A DNA stretch of 64,000 bases, taken from the NCBI RefSeq assembly GCF_058153355.1, contig NZ_CM177019.1; one strand, given 5' to 3'. A program made the position numbers and the translations under genes. The stretch's first letter is position 1. Every line of letters begins with the position of its first letter. The notes under the pieces were generated by a model that did no database searches, was not told where the DNA came from, and worked only from the letters and a program-made list of their open reading frames with translations. Below are positions 26,393-63,722 of the stretch, one piece after another.

Positions 26393-27376
26393 CTAACGTT
26401 TATTCTTTTTTCTATTTACCAGTCTTACCATCCTCCAGAGAATATAGTTTTTTGATGCTAATATTTTTGCTCGCCTCTTATCTCTCTTGCCAAGAAGATT
26501 ACAATCTTTCAATTCTTTTTCATTGCTTTCAACTAATTGATTTAATAATTCAAAATCGCCATTAAGTAGAACATTCCATAAATAACGAGTTTTATGATAA
26601 GTTCTATTTTTACTCAATAATGTATGAATTTCTTCTTTCCGGTTACCTTTGTATAACTGCATCACAGAAGAGTAGATTCTTTCGTGCGCAAATGACTCAT
26701 GTCGATAATGAGTGATGGTTCTACATGAGTTCATTAAGGAATTTTCTCTATAGTTATGCTTATACATATAATATGGAACCGCATACATATCGCATGTAAT
26801 TAGCAGTCGATAGATAAAATCCAGATCTTCTCCTAGTCTTAAATCTTCATCAAAAAAAAGATTATTATCTTCCAGGAGTTGTTTTCTTATAAACAAGCAC
26901 CCTATATGGAATCTGACCTTTTTATAAAAAAAGTCGAAAAGTAAAGACCCTTCATTAAACTCTGTATTTATAGGTGAGTAAGTAACACCATTTTTTATAT
27001 GATGGCCATAAAGCCCACAATAAATCGCATCCCCTCCCGTCTCATGTTGTCTGGAATACATCTTCAGCAGATAGTTAGGATCTATCTCATCATCATCATC
27101 CATAAAACATATAAACTGTCCTTGCGCCTTGCGGATACCTGTATTCCTGGCAGACGAAACACCGCCATTTTCTTTATTGATAATAATTAATTGCGAGTGG
27201 GTTAACCCATACTCTCTCAAAACGTTTGATGTGTTATCTTTAGAACCATCATTAACAATAACAATTTCAAAATTTGGGTAAGTTTGTTTTTCTAATTTCG
27301 TTAGAGTTTCAGTAATGTAATCAGATGAATTATACGTCGGTATTATTATGGATACTAAAGGGTAATCATTGCTCAT
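26393..27376 (-). CDS. waaV: Family-2 glycosyltransferase of LPS outer core (WaaV-like)
   Basis: 327 aa; GT2 motifs SIIIPTYNSSDYI…IVIVNDGSKDNT…DDDD; symbol assigned by position in an R1-type gene order. Confidence 0.6.
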   Translation of the reverse strand: MSNDYPLVSIIIPTYNSSDYITETLTKLEKQTYPNFEIVIVNDGSKDNTSNVLREYGLTHSQLIIINKENGGVSSARNTGIRKAQGQFICFMDDDDEIDPNYLLKMYSRQHETGGDAIYCGLYGHHIKNGVTYSPINTEFNEGSLLFDFFYKKVRFHIGCLFIRKQLLEDNNLFFDEDLRLGEDLDFIYRLLITCDMYAVPYYMYKHNYRENSLMNSCRTITHYRHESFAHERIYSSVMQLYKGNRKEEIHTLLSKNRTYHKTRYLWNVLLNGDFELLNQLVESNEKELKDCNLLGKRDKRRAKILASKNYILWRMVRLVNRKKNKR

Positions 27377-27454
27377 CGTGTTCTCTTGCCTGAACTAATA
27401 AAATATGATAGTACTCATCCTTAATTATTATTGTAACTCAGACATCCATGATTT

Positions 27455-28483
27455 TTATTGCCCAAATAGTTTTCTTTTATACTTATTTAATTTGAATTTA
27501 ATGAAGTAAATGAAAGCGTTAAACGTATCACCATTTTTCTTTGCATGTTGGTATTTCACTTGATACTGCTTTTCATTCGTGGCTGGAATAAACGCCACAT
27601 CATTCCAGCAAGAAGCCTGATAAGCCTCATTAAAATACTTCTGGCAGGGATAATTTGTCCAGTCGTTCCAGGGCTTCGTTACGCCAACATAATGAATCAG
27701 CTTAGTATCATCGGTAATGGTCTTTTTATAATCTTCATTGCTTTTATTTTTTAACTCATAGTCAATGCCATAAAAGCAATCATAATCGCCGCTAATAAAA
27801 ATACAATGACCAAAGAACAGAATATTTAAAATATCCTGATCAAGGCATTTATATTTCGTGTGCTGCGGGTCACTTGCCAGCATAGCAATGGCTTTGTTCA
27901 TAAAATCATTTTTCGACCATGCTTCAAGCTGCAGATATACTACACCAGCGTTGAAATAATTCCCTGGAAGTCCCTCTATAGCCAGACGCTTCGCTGGTTT
28001 TTCCTGCATAAAAGGCACATCTTTAATAACAGCTGCAAACTTATCGCCGTCAAAATTAATATCAAGCAATCCAGCTAATGAGCCTTTACAGATGACATCA
28101 GCATCGATATATAACAGATTTTCAATAGTTTCACTCAGATACTGGAACGCAACTAAACGGAAGAATGTTGCATAAGACCACTGTTTCAGGCTGGGGAAGA
28201 TATCAATAAAGGCACTGGAGACTTTATAAATTCTTACTTCAACGTTAGCATTTTTGCTGGTAAAAGCGTTAACACGTTGTAGATAATCTTCATCAATGTA
28301 GTCGGTAAAGAGATGAAACTTAACCGCAAGGTCCGGGTTATGCATAACAACTGATTGCATAGATACTGCCGCACCAAATAAAAAATTACGGTCAATACCG
28401 TAAGCGATATTTAACACACGATCGGTGTTAGCAATTTCCCCAGAGACAGCGACTTCAGTAATACTCTCAGCTAATAAATCCAT
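27455..28483 (-). CDS. waaW: Family-8 glycosyltransferase of LPS outer core (WaaW-like)
   Basis: 342 aa; GT8 signature (NIAYGIDRNF…LYIDADV…HYVGVTKPW). Confidence 0.6.
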   Translation of the reverse strand: MDLLAESITEVAVSGEIANTDRVLNIAYGIDRNFLFGAAVSMQSVVMHNPDLAVKFHLFTDYIDEDYLQRVNAFTSKNANVEVRIYKVSSAFIDIFPSLKQWSYATFFRLVAFQYLSETIENLLYIDADVICKGSLAGLLDINFDGDKFAAVIKDVPFMQEKPAKRLAIEGLPGNYFNAGVVYLQLEAWSKNDFMNKAIAMLASDPQHTKYKCLDQDILNILFFGHCIFISGDYDCFYGIDYELKNKSNEDYKKTITDDTKLIHYVGVTKPWNDWTNYPCQKYFNEAYQASCWNDVAFIPATNEKQYQVKYQHAKKNGDTFNAFIYFIKFKLNKYKRKLFGQ

Positions 28484-28508
28484 GTTGGTTCCGTTTTGAC
28501 TGTGTGGT

Positions 28509-29201
28509 TTACGCTTTGCCTTTTAATTTTTTAATAAATTTGCGTAGTTTGGTTCTGTAGATTACTGAATAGTAGCCATAATCTTTTATTTCGTTGGCAA
28601 TACCCAGGTGACGTTCCATGGCCAGACGATCACGGGCTTTCCGCTCTGCCGTACAGCTTTTACCGGATAGGTCAATTATCCTGACACCATCTTTACTAAC
28701 GATAAAGTTACCCCGGTGTGGGTCGCCCGATAGCATATTTAAGGCATGCAATTTTTCCATTGAAGCCTTAATTTCTGCTTTAACATTTTCTGGAATAATC
28801 GGCATATCATTGAGCTCTACGCCCTCGACATACTCGATAAGCATGATAAAAACACTGGCATAGTTGAAAATTTTACGCTCAGCCAGAAAATAAAAATCAT
28901 TAGGAAAAGTAAGACCTGCACTTCTGACACGATCGGTTTCAACGATCAAATTCTGATAGTAGTCACCTTTTACAAAAGATTTTAAAAAACGTTCATTCCT
29001 TTTCGTTTTCGGGGCAAAGACTTTAAAAACATAGCGACCATATTTCGTATCAATCAACGATACTTTGGTATCATCAATATTACGTAATACTTTTACTGTT
29101 TTAAAATTATAGGCCAGTATTTCATCAAAGATTTCTTTATATTTATTATCGTTATCTTTGTAATAAAATGAGAAGCCGCGATAGCGTATACTTGTAATCA
29201 T
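28509..29201 (-). CDS. waaY: LPS core heptose II kinase
   Basis: 230 aa; kinase-like, paralogous to WaaP; MITSIRYRGFSFYYKD. Confidence 0.75.
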   Translation of the reverse strand: MITSIRYRGFSFYYKDNDNKYKEIFDEILAYNFKTVKVLRNIDDTKVSLIDTKYGRYVFKVFAPKTKRNERFLKSFVKGDYYQNLIVETDRVRSAGLTFPNDFYFLAERKIFNYASVFIMLIEYVEGVELNDMPIIPENVKAEIKASMEKLHALNMLSGDPHRGNFIVSKDGVRIIDLSGKSCTAERKARDRLAMERHLGIANEIKDYGYYSVIYRTKLRKFIKKLKGKA

Positions 29202-29210
29202 AAGAGTAAT

Positions 29211-30206
29211 TTATTTCTTAAGCTTGTACTTAATTAATGAAGTTATACCTTTAATATACTCACCATGGGCAAACAGATGCTTATATTGTTTCTGCATTTC
29301 TGCAACAGTCCGCGCCTCTTTAAGAGGATATTTCTTCCAGGGAGATTGTTCACGCGCGATATTAAAGTATGATACAGACGGATATCCAGCCCAGCTATGC
29401 CATGGTTTAGTTATCCCTGTATAGTGAATCAATACTGTTTTATCGGTAATGGTTTGCTGATACTTTCGATGACTACGATCATGAAGTTCGTTTTTCAGGG
29501 TATAAATAGTATCAAAATCCTTCGCGAGGTAGATATTATTCATATTAAATGCGATATTCAACGCATCCTGATCTAAATATTTAAGAGAGCCATATTTAGT
29601 TTCCCCTCGTAAAAGCGTGAGTAAATACGGTGTCAAATTTGCTTCATGCCATTTTTTAAGATTGACATAGATAACGCCTGCATTGAAATAACGTCCATTC
29701 ATTTCGGGAATGTTAAGACGTTTTGCACATGCCGCCTGAGTACTATCATTGTCAGGAATAACCGCAGCAAACTCATCTTTAAATATAATTTTTGTGAGAG
29801 GTTTCAGACTTCCTTTACAAACGACATCGGCATCCAGATACAGCAGTGTGGAAATACTTTCACTCAGATATTCAAAGGACAATACCCTGAAGTATGTCGC
29901 GTACGACCAAAACTGTGACGTCGGCAGATCAGCAAAGTATTTTGGGTCAATTAAATATACAATAATTGAGGTATTAAATTGTTTTGCTGTTTCATTAAAT
30001 GACTTTAAATAATCATCATCCACATAATCAGTGAAAACATGAAAGACAAAATTAATATCTGAATTATTAATCAAAACGGAAGAAATTGAAACGCCAGCAC
30101 CATACAAAAAATTCTTATCGATACCGTAGGAAACATTTAGCTCTGGGACGTTTTCTTTTTTATTATCTGCTAAATACGAAAACCGTTCTTTTATAAATTC
30201 ATTCAT
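29211..30206 (-). CDS. waaT: Family-8 glycosyltransferase of LPS outer core (WaaT-like)
   Basis: 331 aa; GT8 motifs (NVSYGIDKNF…LYLDADV…HYTGITKPW). Confidence 0.6.
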   Translation of the reverse strand: MNEFIKERFSYLADNKKENVPELNVSYGIDKNFLYGAGVSISSVLINNSDINFVFHVFTDYVDDDYLKSFNETAKQFNTSIIVYLIDPKYFADLPTSQFWSYATYFRVLSFEYLSESISTLLYLDADVVCKGSLKPLTKIIFKDEFAAVIPDNDSTQAACAKRLNIPEMNGRYFNAGVIYVNLKKWHEANLTPYLLTLLRGETKYGSLKYLDQDALNIAFNMNNIYLAKDFDTIYTLKNELHDRSHRKYQQTITDKTVLIHYTGITKPWHSWAGYPSVSYFNIAREQSPWKKYPLKEARTVAEMQKQYKHLFAHGEYIKGITSLIKYKLKK

Positions 30207-30222
30207 TTAAATTTTCTCAATG

Positions 30223-31239
30223 TCATTTTATTATCTTTAAATAAAAATAATAAATATAATTCATTATCCCGTTAATTGGTTTATTTTGTTTAAAATTATG
30301 CTTAGCGCAATAACGAGCATAATTTGAGTTAATTGGCCGCATTAACGGTTCATTTTTCCATGGCGATGCTTCTTTGGCTTTGATAAATGGCTGCGCGCTT
30401 GGATAACCGGCCCAGTAATGCCAGGGTTTTGTCGGGCCGACATAATGAATTAATACGGTTTCATCATTAATTGGACAAATAAATGATTTTTTTAATTCAT
30501 AATTTAAACTAAATTGCGTATTGTATTTAGCATCAATGAATTTAACTTTCCCTAACAGGATAAGATTTAGTATATCTTGATCCATATAGGTTAAACGGGA
30601 AACTACGGCTTTATCAGCAAGCATCGACATCGCTTTAGCAGAAACGGACTCCTGCGCCCACGCAAGTGTATTAATTAACAGGACACCTGAATTAAAGTAA
30701 CCCTTTTCAAGTTCATTACACTGCAGACTTTGAGCCCGTAACGACCACCAGTTAGCATCGCGTTCAGTAACAACAGCAGCAACGTTATTGGCAAGATCCA
30801 TTGTTATCAGCGGTTTTAAGGTTCCCTGACAGGCGATATCAGCATCCAGGTACAGGATCTTATCTTGTTGATCAATAAAGTAATCTGCAATTACAAAACG
30901 GAAATACATGGCAATAGACCAATTTTTGGTCGTCGGTAATACCTTAAGCCGTTCACAATTTACCAGATGGATCTGGATACAGGTATGATAGCTTTTCGCC
31001 AATTGGGATAAACGCTGGATATCGGCGTCAGGGATATCATCAATAAAAACGTGGAAGACAAAACTCACGTCGTTGTTATGTAACAAAACTGACGTGATTG
31101 AAACACCACAACCAAAAAGAAAGTTCTGATCAATGCCATAAGCAACATGGAATGATGATGCCACTGACGCCTCTGGCCTTTCATCGAAGATGATTGTCTT
31201 ATTGATCATCTCTTGTGGATTAAAATAGTGGGCACTCAT
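30223..31239 (-). CDS. waaO: Family-8 glycosyltransferase of LPS outer core (WaaO/WaaI-like)
   Basis: 338 aa; GT8 motifs (HVAYGIDQNF…LYLDADI…HYVGPTKPW). Confidence 0.65.
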   Translation of the reverse strand: MSAHYFNPQEMINKTIIFDERPEASVASSFHVAYGIDQNFLFGCGVSITSVLLHNNDVSFVFHVFIDDIPDADIQRLSQLAKSYHTCIQIHLVNCERLKVLPTTKNWSIAMYFRFVIADYFIDQQDKILYLDADIACQGTLKPLITMDLANNVAAVVTERDANWWSLRAQSLQCNELEKGYFNSGVLLINTLAWAQESVSAKAMSMLADKAVVSRLTYMDQDILNLILLGKVKFIDAKYNTQFSLNYELKKSFICPINDETVLIHYVGPTKPWHYWAGYPSAQPFIKAKEASPWKNEPLMRPINSNYARYCAKHNFKQNKPINGIMNYIYYFYLKIIK

Positions 31240-31254
31240 ATTTCTCTCCGGAAA

Positions 31255-32052
31255 TTACAACGATTTTCTAATCGTTCTTTCCCTGATTTTTGTGGCTTTT
31301 GCTTCTGCTTGCGACAGCAGCCCTTGTTCCTGCTTGAGAATGTCTTTAAGCGGGGCAGCAAAATACACCTTCATGAACCGCCAGATATCCCGCTGAGTCA
31401 GGCCAATATTCATCGAAGAAAAATAAAGCCCAATAAGATCTTTATCGCGCCAACGACGTGGAACGCGCGTGCGAAGCTGCGCCCGGTGCAGGTCAATTAC
31501 TGAAATTTTTAACTCCTCTTCCTTACCGGAAAAAGGCAAGTGCAGCAGGAAATGACAGATATAACAGTCACGGTGGTTAATGCCCGCAGCATGCATATCG
31601 CGCACCATCATCGCGACACGCTTAATAATCATACGCTTTACGCGAACATCTGGAGGGTTAGTCGCCCAGTCAGCACAGTAATCTTCCAGACTGATGGTTG
31701 GTGTCAGATCTTCGGTTATAATAAACGAGGTTCTGGTCAGCGGATTAATGCCTTTTTCGCCGAATGCCACCCCATACATAGTATCAACGCCGACATCCCG
31801 CAGTCGATGAATCGCATTCCATTCGCGGTCTGCACCTAATACTGGCATCCGCAATGAGAGTAAATTTTTGATTATCTCTTTCAGGGTCGTGCCGCGATGC
31901 CATTTGAGAAAATAGCTTTTGCCCGCCATTTCAAAGCGCAGAGTGCGGCGAGTTTCCAGTTCACGAAATACCTCACCCTGCAAGGTTTTAACTTCCTCAA
32001 AAGGATCTTTACCGCGCCATAACGTGGCAAACGGCTCTTTCAGTTCAACCAT
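31255..32052 (-). CDS. waaP: LPS core heptose I kinase
   Basis: ORF track 31255..32061; start trimmed to [21 protein letters not shown]. Confidence 0.88.
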
Positions 32053-33169
32053 CCAGACCACCCGTTATGATATCCGCCGCTTTCTCTGGCAGACTGTATA
32101 AATCTTGTGTATCAGCATAATGTCGCGCATTTTCCGCCCAGGCCTGGCGCAATGAAGATTGCGTTAACGCTTTGCGTAAAATCTCATTCAATGTTTCCTG
32201 GCGGAATGGCTCAACAATAGCCTCGCCGCAATTGGCGTCAACAATATAATGCGCATAGCCACAAACGGCTGTTGTTAGTACCGGTAATCCTGCAGTAATC
32301 GCTTCCAGCAGCACAATTCCCGCCGCTTCCTGGTAGGCAGGATGCAGTAATAAATCCGCCGCCGCCATTAATTCCGAGACATCGTTGCGCCCCGAGAAGA
32401 AGTGAACATTACTGCGCACGCCGCGTTTTTCTGCCAGCGCCTCAAATTTTCGCGGTTTATCCTGCCCAACAACATATAGCAATGTGTTGTGGCGCAGCGA
32501 ATCCGGTAATGAAGCAAGTGCTTCAATGGAACGATCGACACCTTTACGCGTGAAGTCTGAACCGACCTGCAACAATAAATATTGTTGTTCTGTTATTCCA
32601 TTTTTCTTACGAAAGCTTTCACGGCTATTGGCTGGCTGCTGGCTATATTTACGGTCAGGATAAATCCCCGGAGGCAAAATATGAAAACGCTCCGCTTCAG
32701 TCTGATAATGTTTCTGGAAATCGGCGATTTGCTTGTCCGTCAGCATCAGCAACTGTGTCGGCTTGCCCTGTTCAAAGGTTGCCCGCTCAAAGGCGGCATA
32801 ATGGCGATAACGTGACGTCAAGCGATAGAAAAAGCCTTTCTCCTGCGCCACTTTCTCGGCATAACAAACATCAGCGGCATAATAAACGTCCAGCCCTGGC
32901 ATTTTGTTGAATCCAACGACTCTATCGACCGGATGCTCGCGTAAGTGTTTTTGCACCCAGGCAAAATACTCCGCGTTACGCCCGTGATTGGTATGCGACT
33001 TAACCGGCACTTTGATCAGTTCAAACACATCAGGGCATTCGCCTTCCCATGACTGGGCATAAACCCGAACATGATGCCCTCGGGCCGCAACTGTCTGAGC
33101 AATACGCATAAAATCGCGTTGCAAACCGCCAAAGGGAAAATATTTATATAAACAGAAAGCAACGATCAT
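32045..33169 (-). CDS. waaG: LPS glucosyltransferase I (GT4)
   Basis: 374 aa; [25 protein letters not shown]. Confidence 0.9.
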
Positions 33170-34224
33170 AACGACGTACCTGTCGTGGAGGATGGCAATA
33201 ATTTATCAACAGCAGCAATGACATCTGCCGCCGGAATAACCGAAAGATACATCTCATTTCGGTCACGCTGATCGCGTGTTGGCATTTCCCGGTAATCTCC
33301 CGCCCAGAATTGAATCATGTTATTTGACCAGGGACGCCAGAAAATATGGTCTGTTGCACCAAACAGCGATATCAGCGGCGTATTAACTGCAGCGGCAATG
33401 TGCGCCGGTGCGGAATCAACGCCAATAAACAGCTGCGCATGATCGATTAACGCACCAAGTTCCGGGAAGGTTACCTTTCCGGCCAACGCCGTTACTGGTG
33501 GCGTCTGGCATCCCTGGGCAATTTCATTGACGCAGGCCAGATCGTCTTTATCCGGGCCGGACGTCAGAACGACTTCATAGCCACGTGTATGTAAGGCATC
33601 AATCACAGCGGAAAACTTAGCGTTGTCCCAGCATTTGAAGATTTGCCGCGCGGTAGGTTGGATAACCACATAATTTTGTCCAACACCTGCGTGATCCAGT
33701 TCGCGACGCATTCGTTTCCAGCTTGCAGGCGGGTAACTCATTGTTGTCTGCTTCACCAACGATTCGAGACCCAGTGGCGTCAGCACGGATAAGTTACTTT
33801 CCACCACATTTCCACCCTGCAACGGCACCAGATGGGTGAAGCTTTTACGCCAAAAAGCAGACTGCCGATGATGATAATCCTGGGAAATTTTCACACGGGC
33901 ATTTAATAAGCGAACCAGTATAGCAACCATCCATTGATCGGTAAGATTGACGATAAGGTCATACTTATTGGCACGTAATACCTTGATGAGATGAAAAAAG
34001 TTGGAAATTTTCTCTGAGGCTTTTGCTTTTTTATTTTTTATGCCGTAGAGCGCGTTAATCTCTGGATTTTCAGACAGAATCGGGATGGTATCCTGATAAA
34101 GCAGCACATCGATTTTTGCGTCAGGGTAATTTTTTTTCAGCGAACTAATGACGGGAGTAGTTAATAACATATCCCCATGAAAACGCATCTTAATGAGCAA
34201 AATTCTTCGAAATGGCTTATCCAC
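33166..34224 (-). CDS. waaQ: LPS heptosyltransferase III (GT9)
   Basis: 352 aa; first gene of the minus-strand core operon; GT9 fold. Confidence 0.85.
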   Translation of the reverse strand: MDKPFRRILLIKMRFHGDMLLTTPVISSLKKNYPDAKIDVLLYQDTIPILSENPEINALYGIKNKKAKASEKISNFFHLIKVLRANKYDLIVNLTDQWMVAILVRLLNARVKISQDYHHRQSAFWRKSFTHLVPLQGGNVVESNLSVLTPLGLESLVKQTTMSYPPASWKRMRRELDHAGVGQNYVVIQPTARQIFKCWDNAKFSAVIDALHTRGYEVVLTSGPDKDDLACVNEIAQGCQTPPVTALAGKVTFPELGALIDHAQLFIGVDSAPAHIAAAVNTPLISLFGATDHIFWRPWSNNMIQFWAGDYREMPTRDQRDRNEMYLSVIPAADVIAAVDKLLPSSTTGTSL

Positions 34225-34273
34225 AAGTAACTCTTTTTGTTGAGATTATCCGATTAAGGTGAAGCAGAAAAAG

Positions 34274-34285
34274 CACGCTACCGCC
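34274..34285 (-). promoter_or_regulatory. ops element (RfaH-dependent antitermination site) in waaQ operon leader
   Basis: Plus strand reads cacgctaccgcc, i.e. GGCGGTAGCGTG on the waaQ transcript strand, ~50 nt upstream of the waaQ start. Confidence 0.75.
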
Positions 34286-34636
34286 CCAGGCTCAACAGCT
34301 ACCTGAATACTGATACCGTACTGATATTGACGCGCTAGTGTATCACTTCTTTCGCGGCAATCCGATCCGAATGATTTTTAAGCACATCGTTGTTTTTCAA
34401 TAAAGAAATCAATCAAATAAAATCATTAGCAACAATATTCTTTCACTGTTGCTCCGCGATTCCTTACTGCACGTACTGCGGAAATCAATGAATCGTATAA
34501 AAATACAAAAAAAGTATAGATGTTCAGCAAGAATTGGCGGGTAAATTGCTATTTAAGTCAAAAACGGGAAAAGTAATGGTAAAGCCACAGCTAAATACAT
34601 AGAATCCCCAGCACATCCATAAGTCAGCTATTTACT

Positions 34637-36401
<1,765 letters not shown>

Positions 36402-38827: not shown

Positions 38828-40048
38828 ATGAGCCTGGCCGGTAAAAAAATCGTTCTCGGCGTCAGCGGCGGCATTGCTGCCTATAAAACCCCTGAACTGG
38901 TGCGTCGTTTGCGCGATCGCGGGGCCGACGTCCGCGTAGCCATGACCGAAGCGGCAAAAGCCTTTATTACCCCACTTAGCTTGCAGGCAGTTTCGGGGTA
39001 TCCCGTTTCCGACAGTCTGCTTGACCCGGCAGCCGAAGCCGCTATGGGCCATATTGAGCTGGGTAAATGGGCTGATTTAGTGATTCTCGCCCCTGCCACG
39101 GCAGATTTGATTGCCCGTGTTGCTGCCGGAATGGCGAATGACCTGGTATCGACGATTTGCCTGGCTACACCTGCGCCTGTAGCCGTGCTCCCCGCCATGA
39201 ACCAGCAGATGTACCGTGCCGCCGCCACCCAGCATAATTTAGAGGTGCTTGCCTCGCGTGGTTTGCTCATCTGGGGGCCAGATAGCGGCAGTCAGGCTTG
39301 TGGTGATATCGGCCCTGGGCGAATGCTCGATCCGTTAACCATTGTTGATATGGCGGTAGCACATTTTTCGCCCGTCAACGACCTGAAACATCTGAACATT
39401 ATGATTACCGCCGGCCCGACGCGTGAACCGCTTGACCCGGTGCGTTATATCTCTAATCACAGCTCCGGCAAGATGGGGTTTGCTATCGCTGCTGCTGCTG
39501 CCCGTCGTGGCGCGAACGTCACACTGGTATCAGGTCCGGTTTCGCTACCGACGCCACCGTTTGTTAAACGTGTTGATGTAATGACTGCGCTGGAAATGGA
39601 AGCCGCCGTAAATGCTTCTGTACAGCAGCAAAATATTTTTATCGGTTGCGCCGCCGTGGCGGATTATCGCGCAGCTACCGTAGCCCCAGAGAAAATCAAA
39701 AAGCAGGCCACGCAGGGTGATGAATTAACAATAAAAATGGTTAAAAACCCCGATATCGTCGCAGGCGTTGCCGCACTAAAAGACCATCGACCCTACGTCG
39801 TTGGATTTGCCGCCGAAACAAATAATGTGGAAGAATACGCCCGGCAAAAACGTATCCGTAAAAACCTTGATCTGATCTGCGCGAACGATGTTTCCCAGCC
39901 AACTCAAGGATTTAACAGCGACAACAACGCATTACACCTTTTCTGGCAGGACGGAGATAAAGTCTTACCGCTTGAGCGCAAAGAGCTCCTTGGCCAATTA
40001 TTACTCGACGAGATCGTGACCCGTTATGATGAAAAAAATCGACGTTAA
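38828..40048 (+). CDS. coaBC: Bifunctional phosphopantothenoylcysteine decarboxylase / synthetase
   Basis: ORF track 38756..40048; start trimmed to [20 protein letters not shown] (flavoprotein N-domain). Confidence 0.9.
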
Positions 40049-41187: not shown

Positions 41188-41191
41188 TATG

Positions 41192-41217
41192 ACGCCGGAT
41201 GACTTTTCATCCGGCGA
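41192..41217. terminator. Hairpin between convergent slmA and pyrE (bidirectional terminator candidate)
   Basis: gccggatga cttt tcatccggc perfect 9-bp stem. Confidence 0.5.
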
Positions 41218-41223
41218 GTTTCT

Positions 41224-44972: not shown

Positions 44973-47361
<2,389 letters not shown>

Positions 47362-60907: not shown

Positions 60908-61759
60908 TCAGGCTTTGCCGATAGAGCCGCTCGCCTGTAAATACGGTGTAATCGCTTCTTCGAAGGCCAGTTCCATAGCTTTCAGCGCGTCCACCAGTTC
61001 AATGGATATATCGTGACAGAGGGTATGCAGGAGCGCGGATTTCCCCCGTTCAAAAATGGCCGCCCCCACGTTGATTTTTGCTACCCCCAGCGTCGTACAG
61101 AGCTGGAGCTGATCGAACGGCGTACCGCTACCGCCATGTAATGCCAGAGGCACGCTCGAGCAGTGGAAAATCTCCGCCAGACGCTGAAAATCAATAGCAG
61201 GTACAACACCAGGCGCGTACATGCCGTGCGCCGTGCCTACCGAGACGGCCAGTAGATCAATGCCTGTCTGCGCGATAAACGGTTCCACATCAGTGGGTTG
61301 CGTCATCAGGTCTGCATTGGCGGCCTGGTCGTAACGCGGCGCATCTGCCAGATGGCCCAGTTCGCCTTCCACGCAGAGCTGCGCGCTGGCGGCGAGTTCC
61401 ACCACCGCCCTGGTCTGGCGCACGTTTTCCTCCAGGGGAAAAGCAGAAGCATCAATCATTAATCCGCTGAAACCAGCACGAAACGCCTGACGAATACAGT
61501 CCGGATTTTTGCCATGATCAAGCGCCAGAGCGACCGGTACTGAGGCAGATTCCGCGAGCGTTTTAACCACTGCCGCCGCGACGGGTGCAGGAAAATGCGC
61601 CAGATGCCCCTGATAGAGATTGAGAATGATCGGCGCGCGATTCTTCTCCGCCACGCGGATAGCTGCGTGAGCACTTTCCAGATTCATACAGTTGATCGCC
61701 AGCAAGGCGTAATGTTCATGCCAGGCTTTCATCACCATACTTTTCATATCGGCAAACAT
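60908..61759 (-). CDS. Second class II ketose-bisphosphate aldolase paralog
   Basis: 283 aa; ALDHG, GTAHG, LALHGGSG motifs retained; start may be an internal Met. Confidence 0.8.
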   Translation of the reverse strand: MFADMKSMVMKAWHEHYALLAINCMNLESAHAAIRVAEKNRAPIILNLYQGHLAHFPAPVAAAVVKTLAESASVPVALALDHGKNPDCIRQAFRAGFSGLMIDASAFPLEENVRQTRAVVELAASAQLCVEGELGHLADAPRYDQAANADLMTQPTDVEPFIAQTGIDLLAVSVGTAHGMYAPGVVPAIDFQRLAEIFHCSSVPLALHGGSGTPFDQLQLCTTLGVAKINVGAAIFERGKSALLHTLCHDISIELVDALKAMELAFEEAITPYLQASGSIGKA

Positions 61760-63218: not shown

Positions 63219-63689
63219 TTAGCAGACATCGGATTGTGCATACTGACTAAAGAGATCAATGATTTTTTGCGGACTCGTCTCAACTAACAATTGTTCTATG
63301 ATGTCATCATCCGCCAGCGCGCCCGCGACCTGGGAAAGTAAACGGATATGGGTGGTATTTTGATCTTCAAGACGTACCGCAAATAAAATAATACAGCGCA
63401 CGCTACTGCCATCCAGCGTTTCCCAGGGAATATCCTGCCGGGTACGGCCAATTGCCAGCGTAGTATTAATCACAGCTGAAGATTTACCATGCGGGATCGC
63501 AATATGATTTTCAAAACCAGTCGAGCCTTCCGCTTCGCGCTGCCAGACATCTTTAATAAAGGTTTCCCGACAATCGATCGCACCATCTTTTTTGAGAAGA
63601 TTAGTTAATTCTTCAATCGCCTCCGCTTTATTCGTCGCTTGCATATCTAAAATAACGCGATTCGTATTCAGGATTTTTGTTATGTCCAT
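63219..63689 (-). CDS. PTS fructose/mannitol-family EIIA component
   Basis: 156 aa; IAIPHGK phospho-histidine motif. Confidence 0.85.
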   Translation of the reverse strand: MDITKILNTNRVILDMQATNKAEAIEELTNLLKKDGAIDCRETFIKDVWQREAEGSTGFENHIAIPHGKSSAVINTTLAIGRTRQDIPWETLDGSSVRCIILFAVRLEDQNTTHIRLLSQVAGALADDDIIEQLLVETSPQKIIDLFSQYAQSDVC

Positions 63690-63722
63690 TCGTCATACCT
63701 CATAAAATTCTGACATTAAATT

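What the first reader, a model, noticed from the sequence alone, without database searches (positions are those of the whole stretch)
34274..34285. ops (RfaH-recruitment) element in the waaQ leader
GGCGGTAGCGTG is present on the waaQ transcript strand within the 410-bp divergent waaQ/waaA intergenic region, as expected for RfaH-dependent antitermination of the long core operon.
Basis: partly seen in the sequence, partly recalled or inferred. Interest (0 to 1): 0.3.

Follow-up and report, generated by a model that had tools for sequence, protein, structure and literature searches.

The report
RfaH loading site before waaQ operon
This is the well-known ops/JUMPstart signal in the untranslated leader of the E. 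coli LPS-core (waaQ) operon, where the anti-termination factor RfaH boards RNA polymerase so that the whole nine-gene operon is transcribed; it is real but ordinary.

Summary
The 12-mer GGCGGTAGCGTG is at 34274..34285 on the minus strand, the waaQ coding (non-template) strand. It is the only exact copy in the window (0 of 100 shuffles). It forms the 3' end of a full 39-nt JUMPstart element (34274..34312), which scores 55.2 bits against an Rfam cut-off of 35.

It lies about 46 nt downstream of the transcription start inferred from MG1655 rirA, and 50 nt upstream of the waaQ GTG. The operon behind it has nine genes over 9.2 kb (waaQ to the O-antigen ligase gene), and its distal two-thirds is 31-39% GC.

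The leader is present in 5424 of 5426 complete E. coli genomes. It differs at one base from that of CFT073, where published ChIP-seq shows RfaH loading at this ops site and loss of distal RNA polymerase in an rfaH mutant. ops plus JUMPstart precede waaQ in 40 other Enterobacterales species.

Additions: the leader corresponds to the RirA sRNA, published Term-seq 3' ends in K-12 map to ops G10/U11, and the promoter and GTG start are conserved. A possible conserved outer RNA helix followed by a U-run remains speculative.

The parts
34274..34285 (-). ops element GGCGGTAGCGTG (G1 = 34285, T6 = 34280, pause position U11 = 34275, G12 = 34274)
   Evidence: Exact match and unique in the window. Identical in MG1655, CFT073 and two sampled variant alleles. 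Positions 9-12 were not required by the scan, yet the full 12-mer is present in 39 of 40 other species.
34274..34312 (-). 39-nt JUMPstart element, with ops as its 3' third
   Evidence: Rfam RF01707, 55.2 bits against gathering 35, full-length match. Exact in 4907 E. coli records and one mismatch in 496.
34287..34305 (-). JUMPstart stem-loop: CAGGT (34305..34301) pairs with GCCTG (34291..34287) around a 9-nt loop
   Evidence: Rfam structure line. RNAalifold recovers it, and it is 100% paired in 41 sequences with AU/GU/GC at the second pair. The E. coli one-mismatch alleles carry A->G, which turns A-U into G.U.
34337..34345 (-). Extended -10 promoter TGaTACACT (TG 34345..34344, hexamer 34342..34337)
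   Evidence: Nearly invariant in 41 waaQ leaders from about 40 species. It lies 7 nt upstream of the position homologous to the MG1655 rirA/waaQ 5' end. That it is the promoter is an inference.
34330..34330 (-). Inferred transcription start, homologous to the 5' end of MG1655 rirA, which reviews say is shared with waaQ mRNA
   Evidence: MG1655 annotates ncRNA rirA b4760 at 3808166..3808238 (-). It was mapped to the window through alignment A1. The shared start is stated in PMC8745692.
34258..34330 (-). Equivalent of the 73-nt RirA sRNA (waaQ 5' UTR RNA containing JUMPstart and ops)
   Evidence: Ungapped homology to MG1655 rirA. Present in 5424 of 5426 E. coli genomes at 90% identity or more. 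RirA function is described in PMC6358824 and PMC5736990.
34268..34272 (-). T5 run one base after ops (C at 34273 lies between)
   Evidence: Read from the sequence. T-rich in most but not all of the 41 leaders. Its role is unknown.
34222..34235 (-). AAGAG (34235..34231), 6-nt spacer, then the GTG start codon of waaQ (34224..34222)
   Evidence: GAG and the GT of GTG are invariant, and the flanking AA and final G nearly invariant, across 41 leaders, although the scan did not require them. The NCBIfam RfaQ equivalog aligns from residue 1 of the GTG-started protein.
33166..34224 (-). waaQ (rfaQ), first gene of the operon
   Evidence: NCBIfam NF007742 RfaQ, 713.5 bits against cut-off 467. Annotated rfaQ in a 99.8% identical genome.
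25094..33169 (-). Eight downstream genes: waaG, waaP, waaO-like GT8, GT8, waaY, GT8, GT2, and the O-antigen ligase waaL (25094..26347). Gaps between genes are 78 nt or less, or the genes overlap.
   Evidence: ORF list, NCBIfam, Pfam Wzy_C for the last gene. Collinear with and 98.2% identical to the CFT073 rfa operon. GC is 31-39% over 25000..31000.
34637..35914 (+). waaA (kdtA), the divergent neighbour that bounds the intergenic region
   Evidence: NCBIfam NF004385, 904.9 bits against cut-off 590.

Best explanation
The 12-mer is the functional ops site of the waaQ (rfaQ) LPS-core operon of an E. coli strain with a CFT073-like (R1-type) core cluster.

Transcription starts about 46 nt upstream, from a conserved extended -10 promoter. 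When RNA polymerase has transcribed to ops U11 (34275) it pauses. The exposed non-template strand folds into a small hairpin (C3:G8 stem, T6 flipped out). Autoinhibited RfaH recognises this hairpin through G5/T6. RfaH opens, its N-terminal domain locks onto the polymerase, and its C-terminal domain refolds into a beta-barrel that can recruit a ribosome.

The RfaH-modified complex then excludes NusG. It resists pausing, Rho-dependent termination and H-NS/StpA roadblocks, and so reaches the distal AT-rich outer-core and ligase genes about 9 kb away.

Shown here: the sequence, strand, position, JUMPstart context, operon architecture and conservation. Taken from the literature on identical or near-identical alleles: RfaH binding, pausing and polarity. 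Inferred: that this particular strain behaves the same way.
For: 1. Exact ops 12-mer, unique in the window and absent from shuffles.
2. Full JUMPstart at 55.2 bits, the only Rfam hit.
3. On the waaQ coding strand, 50 nt before the GTG. This is within the 40-67 nt ops-to-start distance reported for wzx, kps and rfa. It is downstream of the TSS homologous to MG1655 rirA.
4. Nine tightly packed genes over 9.2 kb, ending in a Wzy_C ligase. The distal 6 kb is 31-39% GC against about 52% in the flanks, which fits H-NS/Rho-sensitive DNA.
5. The leader is present in 5424 of 5426 E. coli genomes. The JUMPstart is exact or has one mismatch in 5402 genomes. The sampled variants change only a stem base, A-U to G.U.
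6. Forty other Enterobacterales species carry ops plus JUMPstart 70-100 nt before waaQ. CGTG, the hairpin and the -10 element are conserved although the scan did not require them.
7. The CFT073 operon is 98.2% identical and its leader differs at 1 nt. In CFT073, RfaH ChIP-seq signal begins at the rfa ops and the delta-rfaH strain loses distal RNAP (RfaH-dependent traveling ratio 0.34 or lower) (PMC9765446).
8. Term-seq in MG1655 shows abundant RNA 3' ends at 3808184 and 3808183, which are ops G10 and U11, with no Rho signature (PMC7815308 supplementary file 3).
9. The structural mechanism comes from PMC5995543 and PMC11001881.
Against: No experiment exists on this exact strain. rfaH itself lies outside the 64-kb window, so its presence is assumed. 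The cross-species scan required GGCGGTAG, so it cannot say how many waaQ leaders lack ops. The TSS is transferred by homology from the MG1655 annotation, not measured. Reviews state that waaQ lacks a canonical RBS, yet a conserved AAGAG-N6-GTG is present. The ribosome-recruitment part of the model may therefore matter less here.
Confidence: 0.95

Rival explanations
1. The element acts mainly as RNA. The leader is released as the RirA sRNA (34330..34258), whose ops/JUMPstart sequence binds RfaH with RNAP and titrates it. On this reading the motif is chiefly a negative feedback decoy rather than a DNA loading site.
For: MG1655 annotates the 73-nt rirA over the homologous stretch. Reviews report that RirA overexpression mimics a delta-rfaH strain and that binding to RfaH needs the ops sequence (PMC6358824, PMC5736990, PMC8745692). 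Abundant short RNAs end within the leader in K-12.
Against: Structural, biochemical and ChIP data show RfaH reading ops in non-template DNA of the paused complex. The RirA effects come from overexpression. The two roles are not exclusive, so RirA is better seen as an added layer than as a replacement. The primary RirA paper (PMC5087721) could not be read.
Confidence: 0.03
2. ops is embedded in a terminator- or attenuator-like RNA hairpin. AGUACG (34322..34317) pairs with CGUGCU (34277..34272), which is ops positions 9-12 plus the next C and the first U of the run. This helix encloses the JUMPstart hairpin and runs into the U5 tract. Polymerases that fail to load RfaH terminate there and produce RirA.
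For: The RNAfold MFE of the 73-mer is this hairpin, at -20.3 kcal/mol. The outer helix is 92.7% paired in 41 leaders; its 5' arm varies U/C opposite G and G/A opposite U, and two pairs show two-sided changes. A T-run follows ops in most species. The Term-seq intrinsic-terminator score is 6.28 and there is no Rho dependence at the K-12 site.
Against: The folding z-score is only -1.2. RNAalifold does not recover the outer helix. The 3' arm is invariant ops sequence, so covariation is necessarily weak. The structure was derived from one of the sequences, which inflates the slid controls. The T-run is absent in several species. The Term-seq 3' ends map to G10/U11, inside the proposed stem. That fits a pause better than termination after the U-run.
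Confidence: 0.1
3. A chance occurrence of a GC-rich 12-mer, or merely a consensus pause site with no dedicated factor.
For: The 8-nt core occurs five more times in the window inside genes. ops matches the general consensus pause (PMC5995543).
Against: The exact 12-mer is absent from all shuffles. There is a full JUMPstart covariance-model hit. Position and sequence are conserved across about 40 species. RfaH ChIP has been done on the near-identical CFT073 allele.
Confidence: 0.01

Closest known systems
ops element / JUMPstart of the E. coli CFT073 rfa (waaQ) operon (RfaH ChIP-seq target, PMC9765446)
   Same: Same locus, same R1-type gene order and gene lengths, 98.2% identity over 10 kb. The 412-bp intergenic region is collinear with 12 substitutions. 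The transcribed leader is identical except for position 34319 (A versus G). ops and JUMPstart are identical.
   Different: A different strain. The nearest genome is a bovine isolate, NZ_CP043414.1, at 99.8%. There are no experimental data for this strain.
E. coli K-12 MG1655 waaQ leader / rirA (b4760)
   Same: The JUMPstart plus ops 39-mer, the extended -10 and the TSS position are identical. The leader is about 90% identical overall.
   Different: K-12 has a different core type: waaS, B, J, Z and U are in the operon and waaL is in the hldD operon. The central intergenic block (window about 34375..34547) is unrelated. K-12 has T6 rather than T5 after ops. Its waaQ is annotated from an ATG 36 nt downstream of the conserved GTG.
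Other RfaH-dependent leaders (rfb/wzx, kps, hlyCABD, F tra) carrying ops/JUMPstart
   Same: The same 12-nt ops on the non-template strand of a 5' leader in front of a long, AT-rich, H-NS-bound envelope or virulence operon (PMC9765446; PMC5995543).
   Different: Different operons and flanking leader sequence. They were not compared at sequence level here.

Membership tests
ops (operon polarity suppressor) RfaH-recruitment element | 12-nt sequence GGCGGTAGnnTG, with C3, G4, G5, T6, A7, G8 needed for RfaH and T11-G12 needed for the pause | tested here: met
   Exact GGCGGTAGCGTG at 34285..34274. Base requirements are from PMC5995543.
ops (operon polarity suppressor) RfaH-recruitment element | Lies on the non-template strand of a transcribed region | tested here: met
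   Same strand as waaQ. It is downstream of the position homologous to the MG1655 rirA/waaQ 5' end. The TSS is transferred by homology, not measured.
ops (operon polarity suppressor) RfaH-recruitment element | Located in the untranslated 5' leader, not inside a translated ORF | tested here: met
   No long ORF covers it. It lies 50 nt before the conserved GTG start. Intragenic ops-like sites do not bind RfaH in CFT073.
ops (operon polarity suppressor) RfaH-recruitment element | Precedes a long operon for cell-envelope or virulence functions | tested here: met
   Nine LPS-core genes over 9.2 kb, with the distal part at 31-39% GC.
ops (operon polarity suppressor) RfaH-recruitment element | RNAP pauses at U11 | not testable with these tools
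   Indirect only. K-12 Term-seq 3' ends fall at the homologous G10/U11 positions (PMC7815308 supplementary file 3).
ops (operon polarity suppressor) RfaH-recruitment element | RfaH binds from this site and distal gene expression depends on rfaH | not testable with these tools
   Shown by ChIP-seq with and without rfaH in CFT073, whose leader differs at 1 nt. Not done for this strain.
ops (operon polarity suppressor) RfaH-recruitment element | rfaH gene present in the same genome | not testable with these tools
   rfaH lies elsewhere on the E. coli chromosome, near ubiD (see, the row at 4024941). It is outside this window.
JUMPstart (Rfam RF01707) | Covariance-model score at or above the gathering threshold over the full model | tested here: met
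   55.2 bits against 35, model positions 1-38 of 38.
JUMPstart (Rfam RF01707) | Conserved 5-bp stem-loop upstream of ops, supported by structure-preserving variation | tested here: met
   100% of cells paired in 41 leaders. The second pair is AU in 26, GU in 13 and GC in 2.
RirA sRNA (MG1655 b4760) | Sequence homologous to the annotated 73-nt rirA, sharing the waaQ 5' end | tested here: met
   Ungapped alignment of window 34330..34258 to rirA, with the JUMPstart/ops core identical.
RirA sRNA (MG1655 b4760) | Accumulates as a discrete small RNA that binds RfaH-RNAP | not testable with these tools
   Known only from reviews of K-12 work. The primary paper is not held.

The most novel reading that the evidence does not exclude
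The waaQ leader may be more than a DNA loading site. It may be a composite RNA/DNA pause-and-attenuation device.
- The JUMPstart RNA hairpin (5-bp stem, 9-nt loop) ends 12 nt upstream of the ops pause nucleotide U11. From memory, this geometry resembles the his-type pause hairpin.
- A second, conserved outer helix pairs ops positions 9-12 with +9..+14 and is followed by a U-run.

Together these could set how long RNAP waits for RfaH, and could release RirA-like short RNAs when RfaH is limiting. That would close a feedback loop on LPS-core and O-antigen expression.
Probability: 0.12. Interest if true: 0.4.

Novelty: already known. Interest (0 to 1): 0.08.

Why it matters
The finding confirms that this strain's LPS core operon, including its O-antigen ligase gene, is wired to RfaH in the standard way. 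An rfaH or ops defect would therefore be expected to give a truncated core and loss of O-antigen attachment, with the usual effects on serum resistance, phage susceptibility and virulence. It adds no new biology. Its value is as a correct annotation (ops, JUMPstart, RirA-equivalent, promoter, GTG start) that genome annotation pipelines leave blank: the BLAST hits show 'none' under this stretch.

Tried and rejected
- The primary RirA paper (PMC5087721) is not held, so RirA details rest on reviews.
- A literature search for rirA plus Term-seq found nothing. The waaQ entry was found in the supplementary tables of PMC7815308 instead.
- I first tried to name the genes under the other GGCGGTAG sites by assuming collinearity with NZ_CP043414.1. 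This failed because the window has two IS insertions and lacks a reverse-transcriptase gene. I used stop-to-stop frames and BLAST offsets instead.
- The generic promoter scan proposed TTGAAA-18-AATCAT at 34400..34371 (-). I did not adopt it, because the MG1655 rirA 5' end and the cross-species conservation point to the extended -10 at 34345..34337. An additional upstream promoter is not excluded.
- Folding energies of the leader are not significantly better than shuffles: z = -1.2 for the 73-mer and -0.3 for the 109-mer.
- RNAalifold recovered only the JUMPstart hairpin and a small ops-internal helix, not the outer helix.
- One of the 41 genome-scan hits (L023, Eggerthellaceae) is a chance match with no JUMPstart and no waaQ, and was dropped.
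- The terminator-like hairpin at 34428..34453 lies upstream of the promoter in the strain-variable block and was not pursued.

Full report
OBSERVATION. The sequence GGCGGTAGCGTG is present at window 34274..34285, reading 5'->3' on the minus strand. It is the only exact copy in the 64-kb window. None of 100 dinucleotide-preserving shuffles contained one. The flanking ORFs are a 352-aa minus-strand ORF at 33166..34224 and a 425-aa plus-strand ORF at 34637..35914. NCBIfam identifies them as RfaQ/WaaQ (713.5 bits, cut-off 467) and WaaA (904.9 bits, cut-off 590). The 8-nt core GGCGGTAG on its own is not diagnostic. It occurs six times against 1.5 expected, and the other five copies lie inside long ORFs.

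WHAT SURROUNDS IT. A scan of the whole window against Rfam at gathering thresholds gave one hit: JUMPstart (RF01707) at 34274..34312 (-). It scores 55.2 bits against a threshold of 35, with E = 6e-10, over the full model. The ops 12-mer is the 3' third of this 39-nt element. Upstream of it is the 5-bp JUMPstart stem-loop, CAGGT 34305..34301 paired with GCCTG 34291..34287.

The window is E. coli chromosome. It is 99.8% identical around the site to NZ_CP043414.1, and the site has homologues in 5424 of 5426 complete genomes.

MG1655 annotates a 73-nt ncRNA, rirA (b4760), in the waaQ leader. Pairwise alignment places its equivalent at window 34330..34258 without gaps. Reviews state that rirA and waaQ mRNA share their 5' end (PMC8745692). 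I therefore take 34330 as the inferred transcription start. An extended -10 element (TG 34345..34344, TACACT 34342..34337) sits 7 nt upstream of it. ops then occupies +46..+57 of the transcript, and the pause nucleotide U11 is 34275. The waaQ GTG (34224) is 50 nt beyond ops G12. This is within the 40-67 nt ops-to-start distances reported for wzx, kps and rfa in CFT073 (PMC9765446).

THE OPERON. Downstream on the minus strand lie nine ORFs with overlaps or gaps of 78 nt or less:
- waaQ
- a GT4 glycosyltransferase (waaG)
- RfaP
- a GT8 that passes the 3-alpha-galactosyltransferase equivalog
- a second GT8
- RfaY
- a third GT8
- a GT2
- a 417-aa protein with the Wzy_C O-antigen-ligase domain at 25094..26347

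This differs from K-12, where waaL is in the other operon. The CFT073 rfa cluster has the same gene order and gene lengths. It is 98.2% identical and collinear over window 25001..35000. From memory, this arrangement is the R1 core type. The distal 6 kb (25000..31000) is 31-39% GC against about 52% in the flanks. That is the kind of DNA that H-NS and Rho silence and that RfaH counter-silences (PMC9765446).

CONSERVATION.
- Within E. coli, the 73-nt leader is found once per genome in 5424 of 5426 genomes at 90% identity or more.
- The 39-nt JUMPstart is exact in 4907 records and has one mismatch in 496.
- Two sampled one-mismatch alleles carry A->G in the hairpin stem (A-U to G.U), with ops untouched.
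- A DNA-pattern scan of one genome per species asked for GGCGGTAG, then 70-100 nt, then the codons for M-R-x-H-G-D-M of WaaQ. It returned 41 loci.
- Forty of them are true waaQ leaders, from Escherichia, Salmonella, Citrobacter, Kluyvera, Kosakonia, Pluralibacter, Cedecea, Buttiauxella, Shimwellia, Pseudescherichia, Pseudocitrobacter, Silvania, Intestinirhabdus and Leminorella. The remaining locus (Eggerthellaceae) is a chance match.

In the alignment of these leaders with the window (A2), several features the scan did not require are invariant or nearly so. These are ops positions 9-12 (CGTG in 39 of 40), the JUMPstart hairpin, the extended -10 TGnTACACT, and AAGAG-N6-GTG at the waaQ start. 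The JUMPstart stem is 100% paired, with AU, GU and GC at one pair. Because the scan demanded ops, it gives breadth but no denominator.

MECHANISM. The steps below are literature-based unless stated otherwise.
1. RNAP pauses at ops U11 in a swiveled, pre-translocated state. [quoted passage not shown]
2. Autoinhibited RfaH docks on that hairpin through G5 and the flipped-out T6.
3. [quoted passage not shown]
4. The pause is hyper-stabilised, and escape needs anti-backtracking factors such as GreA or Mfd (PMC5995543; PMC11001881).
5. RfaH then stays on the polymerase throughout the transcription unit and excludes NusG. This suppresses Rho-dependent termination and allows passage through H-NS/StpA filaments (PMC9765446).

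In CFT073 the transcribed leader differs from the window at one base (34319, outside ops/JUMPstart). There, RfaH ChIP-seq signal starts at the rfa ops site. RNAP occupancy 5.4 kb downstream falls to 0.34 or less of wild type in the delta-rfaH strain. Of the 34 ops-like sites inside coding regions, the 22 on the non-template strand all lacked RfaH signal.

In MG1655, Term-seq tables list abundant 3' ends at 3808184 (62,669 reads in LB at OD 0.4; Rho score 1.04, not Rho-dependent; intrinsic-terminator score 6.28) and at 3808183 (116,952 reads, another condition) (PMC7815308 supplementary file 3). rirA spans 3808238..3808166 and ops is at +46..+57, so these coordinates are ops G10 and U11. That mapping is my own arithmetic. 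It fits a very long-lived pause at this exact sequence. The equivalent window positions are 34276 and 34275.

AN ADDED LAYER. The same leader RNA is described as RirA. When overexpressed it binds RfaH-RNAP in an ops-dependent way and mimics a delta-rfaH strain (PMC6358824, PMC5736990, PMC8745692). I could not read the primary paper. This complements the DNA-loading model and does not compete with it.

SPECULATIVE OBSERVATIONS. RNAfold folds the RirA-equivalent as one long hairpin. AGUACG (34322..34317) pairs with CGUGCU (34277..34272), enclosing the JUMPstart hairpin, and a U5 run follows.
- In favour: across the 41 leaders this outer helix is 92.7% paired, with wobble-compatible variation in the 5' arm and two pairs with two-sided changes. 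Slid controls pair far less.
- Against: the fold is not better than shuffles (z = -1.2). RNAalifold does not find the helix. The 3' arm is invariant ops, so covariation cannot be strong. The U-run is missing in several species. The K-12 3' ends fall inside the proposed stem.

I rate an attenuator role at about 0.1. Separately, the JUMPstart stem ends 12 nt upstream of U11. From memory, this resembles the spacing of the his pause hairpin. I found no paper that discusses this, and I did not test it.

VERDICT. This is the textbook ops/JUMPstart of the waaQ operon, already known in K-12 and CFT073, here in a CFT073-like (R1-type) allele. Novelty: already known. Interest: low.

Noticed in passing
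window 3689..4968 and 18205..19482 (+): Two insertions of about 1.28 kb, absent from both NZ_CP043414.1 and CFT073 and 98% identical to each other. Each encodes a 326-aa IS110-family transposase (Pfam DEDD_Tnp_IS110 plus Transposase_20) and has REP-like flanks. Size, family and target resemble IS621 (from memory; not tested). They carry the ops near-matches GGCAGTAGTGTG at 4605 and 19120.
   Followed up: partly
window 6741..6748 (-), 6853..6860 (+), 39352..39359 (+), 45178..45185 (-), 61128..61135 (-), 63399..63410 (-): Five further GGCGGTAG cores (6 in total against 1.5 expected from shuffles) and one 12-mer with G4A. All are inside long ORFs: lldP twice, coaBC, yicG, a class II fructose-bisphosphate aldolase gene, and an ORF at 63219..63692. 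Three of the cores and the G4A 12-mer are on the coding strand. None has a JUMPstart. Published CFT073 ChIP-seq found no RfaH signal at intragenic ops-like sites on the non-template strand.
   Followed up: partly
window 25000..31000: The distal two-thirds of the waaQ operon (outer-core glycosyltransferases, waaY, ligase) is 31-39% GC against about 52% in the flanks. The change is sharp at the waaC/waaL junction and near waaP.
   Followed up: no
window 34222..34235 (-) and 34188: AAGAG-N6-GTG is invariant or nearly invariant in 41 waaQ leaders, and the NCBIfam RfaQ model aligns from the GTG-started residue 1. The MG1655 annotation starts waaQ at an ATG 36 nt downstream. Reviews say waaQ lacks a canonical ribosome-binding site, yet this weak SD-like motif is conserved.
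   Followed up: partly
window about 34375..34547: The central block of the waaQ-waaA intergenic region is essentially unrelated between this window (CFT073-like) and K-12. The waaA-proximal 114 nt and the waaQ promoter/leader are conserved. The variable block contains a terminator-like hairpin at 34428..34453 (-).
   Followed up: no
window about 41188..41223; L001 21332..22291: The closest genome (NZ_CP043414.1) has a 'reverse transcriptase family protein' gene inserted between slmA and pyrE. The window and CFT073 lack this insertion of about 1.3 kb.
   Followed up: no
MG1655 3808183/3808184 (-), equivalent to window 34275/34276: Published Term-seq tables list very abundant, Rho-independent RNA 3' ends at exactly ops U11/G10 of the waaQ leader. 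This is 17-18 nt upstream of the annotated RirA 3' end (3808166), so the predominant in vivo leader species may be shorter than the annotated 73 nt.
   Followed up: partly
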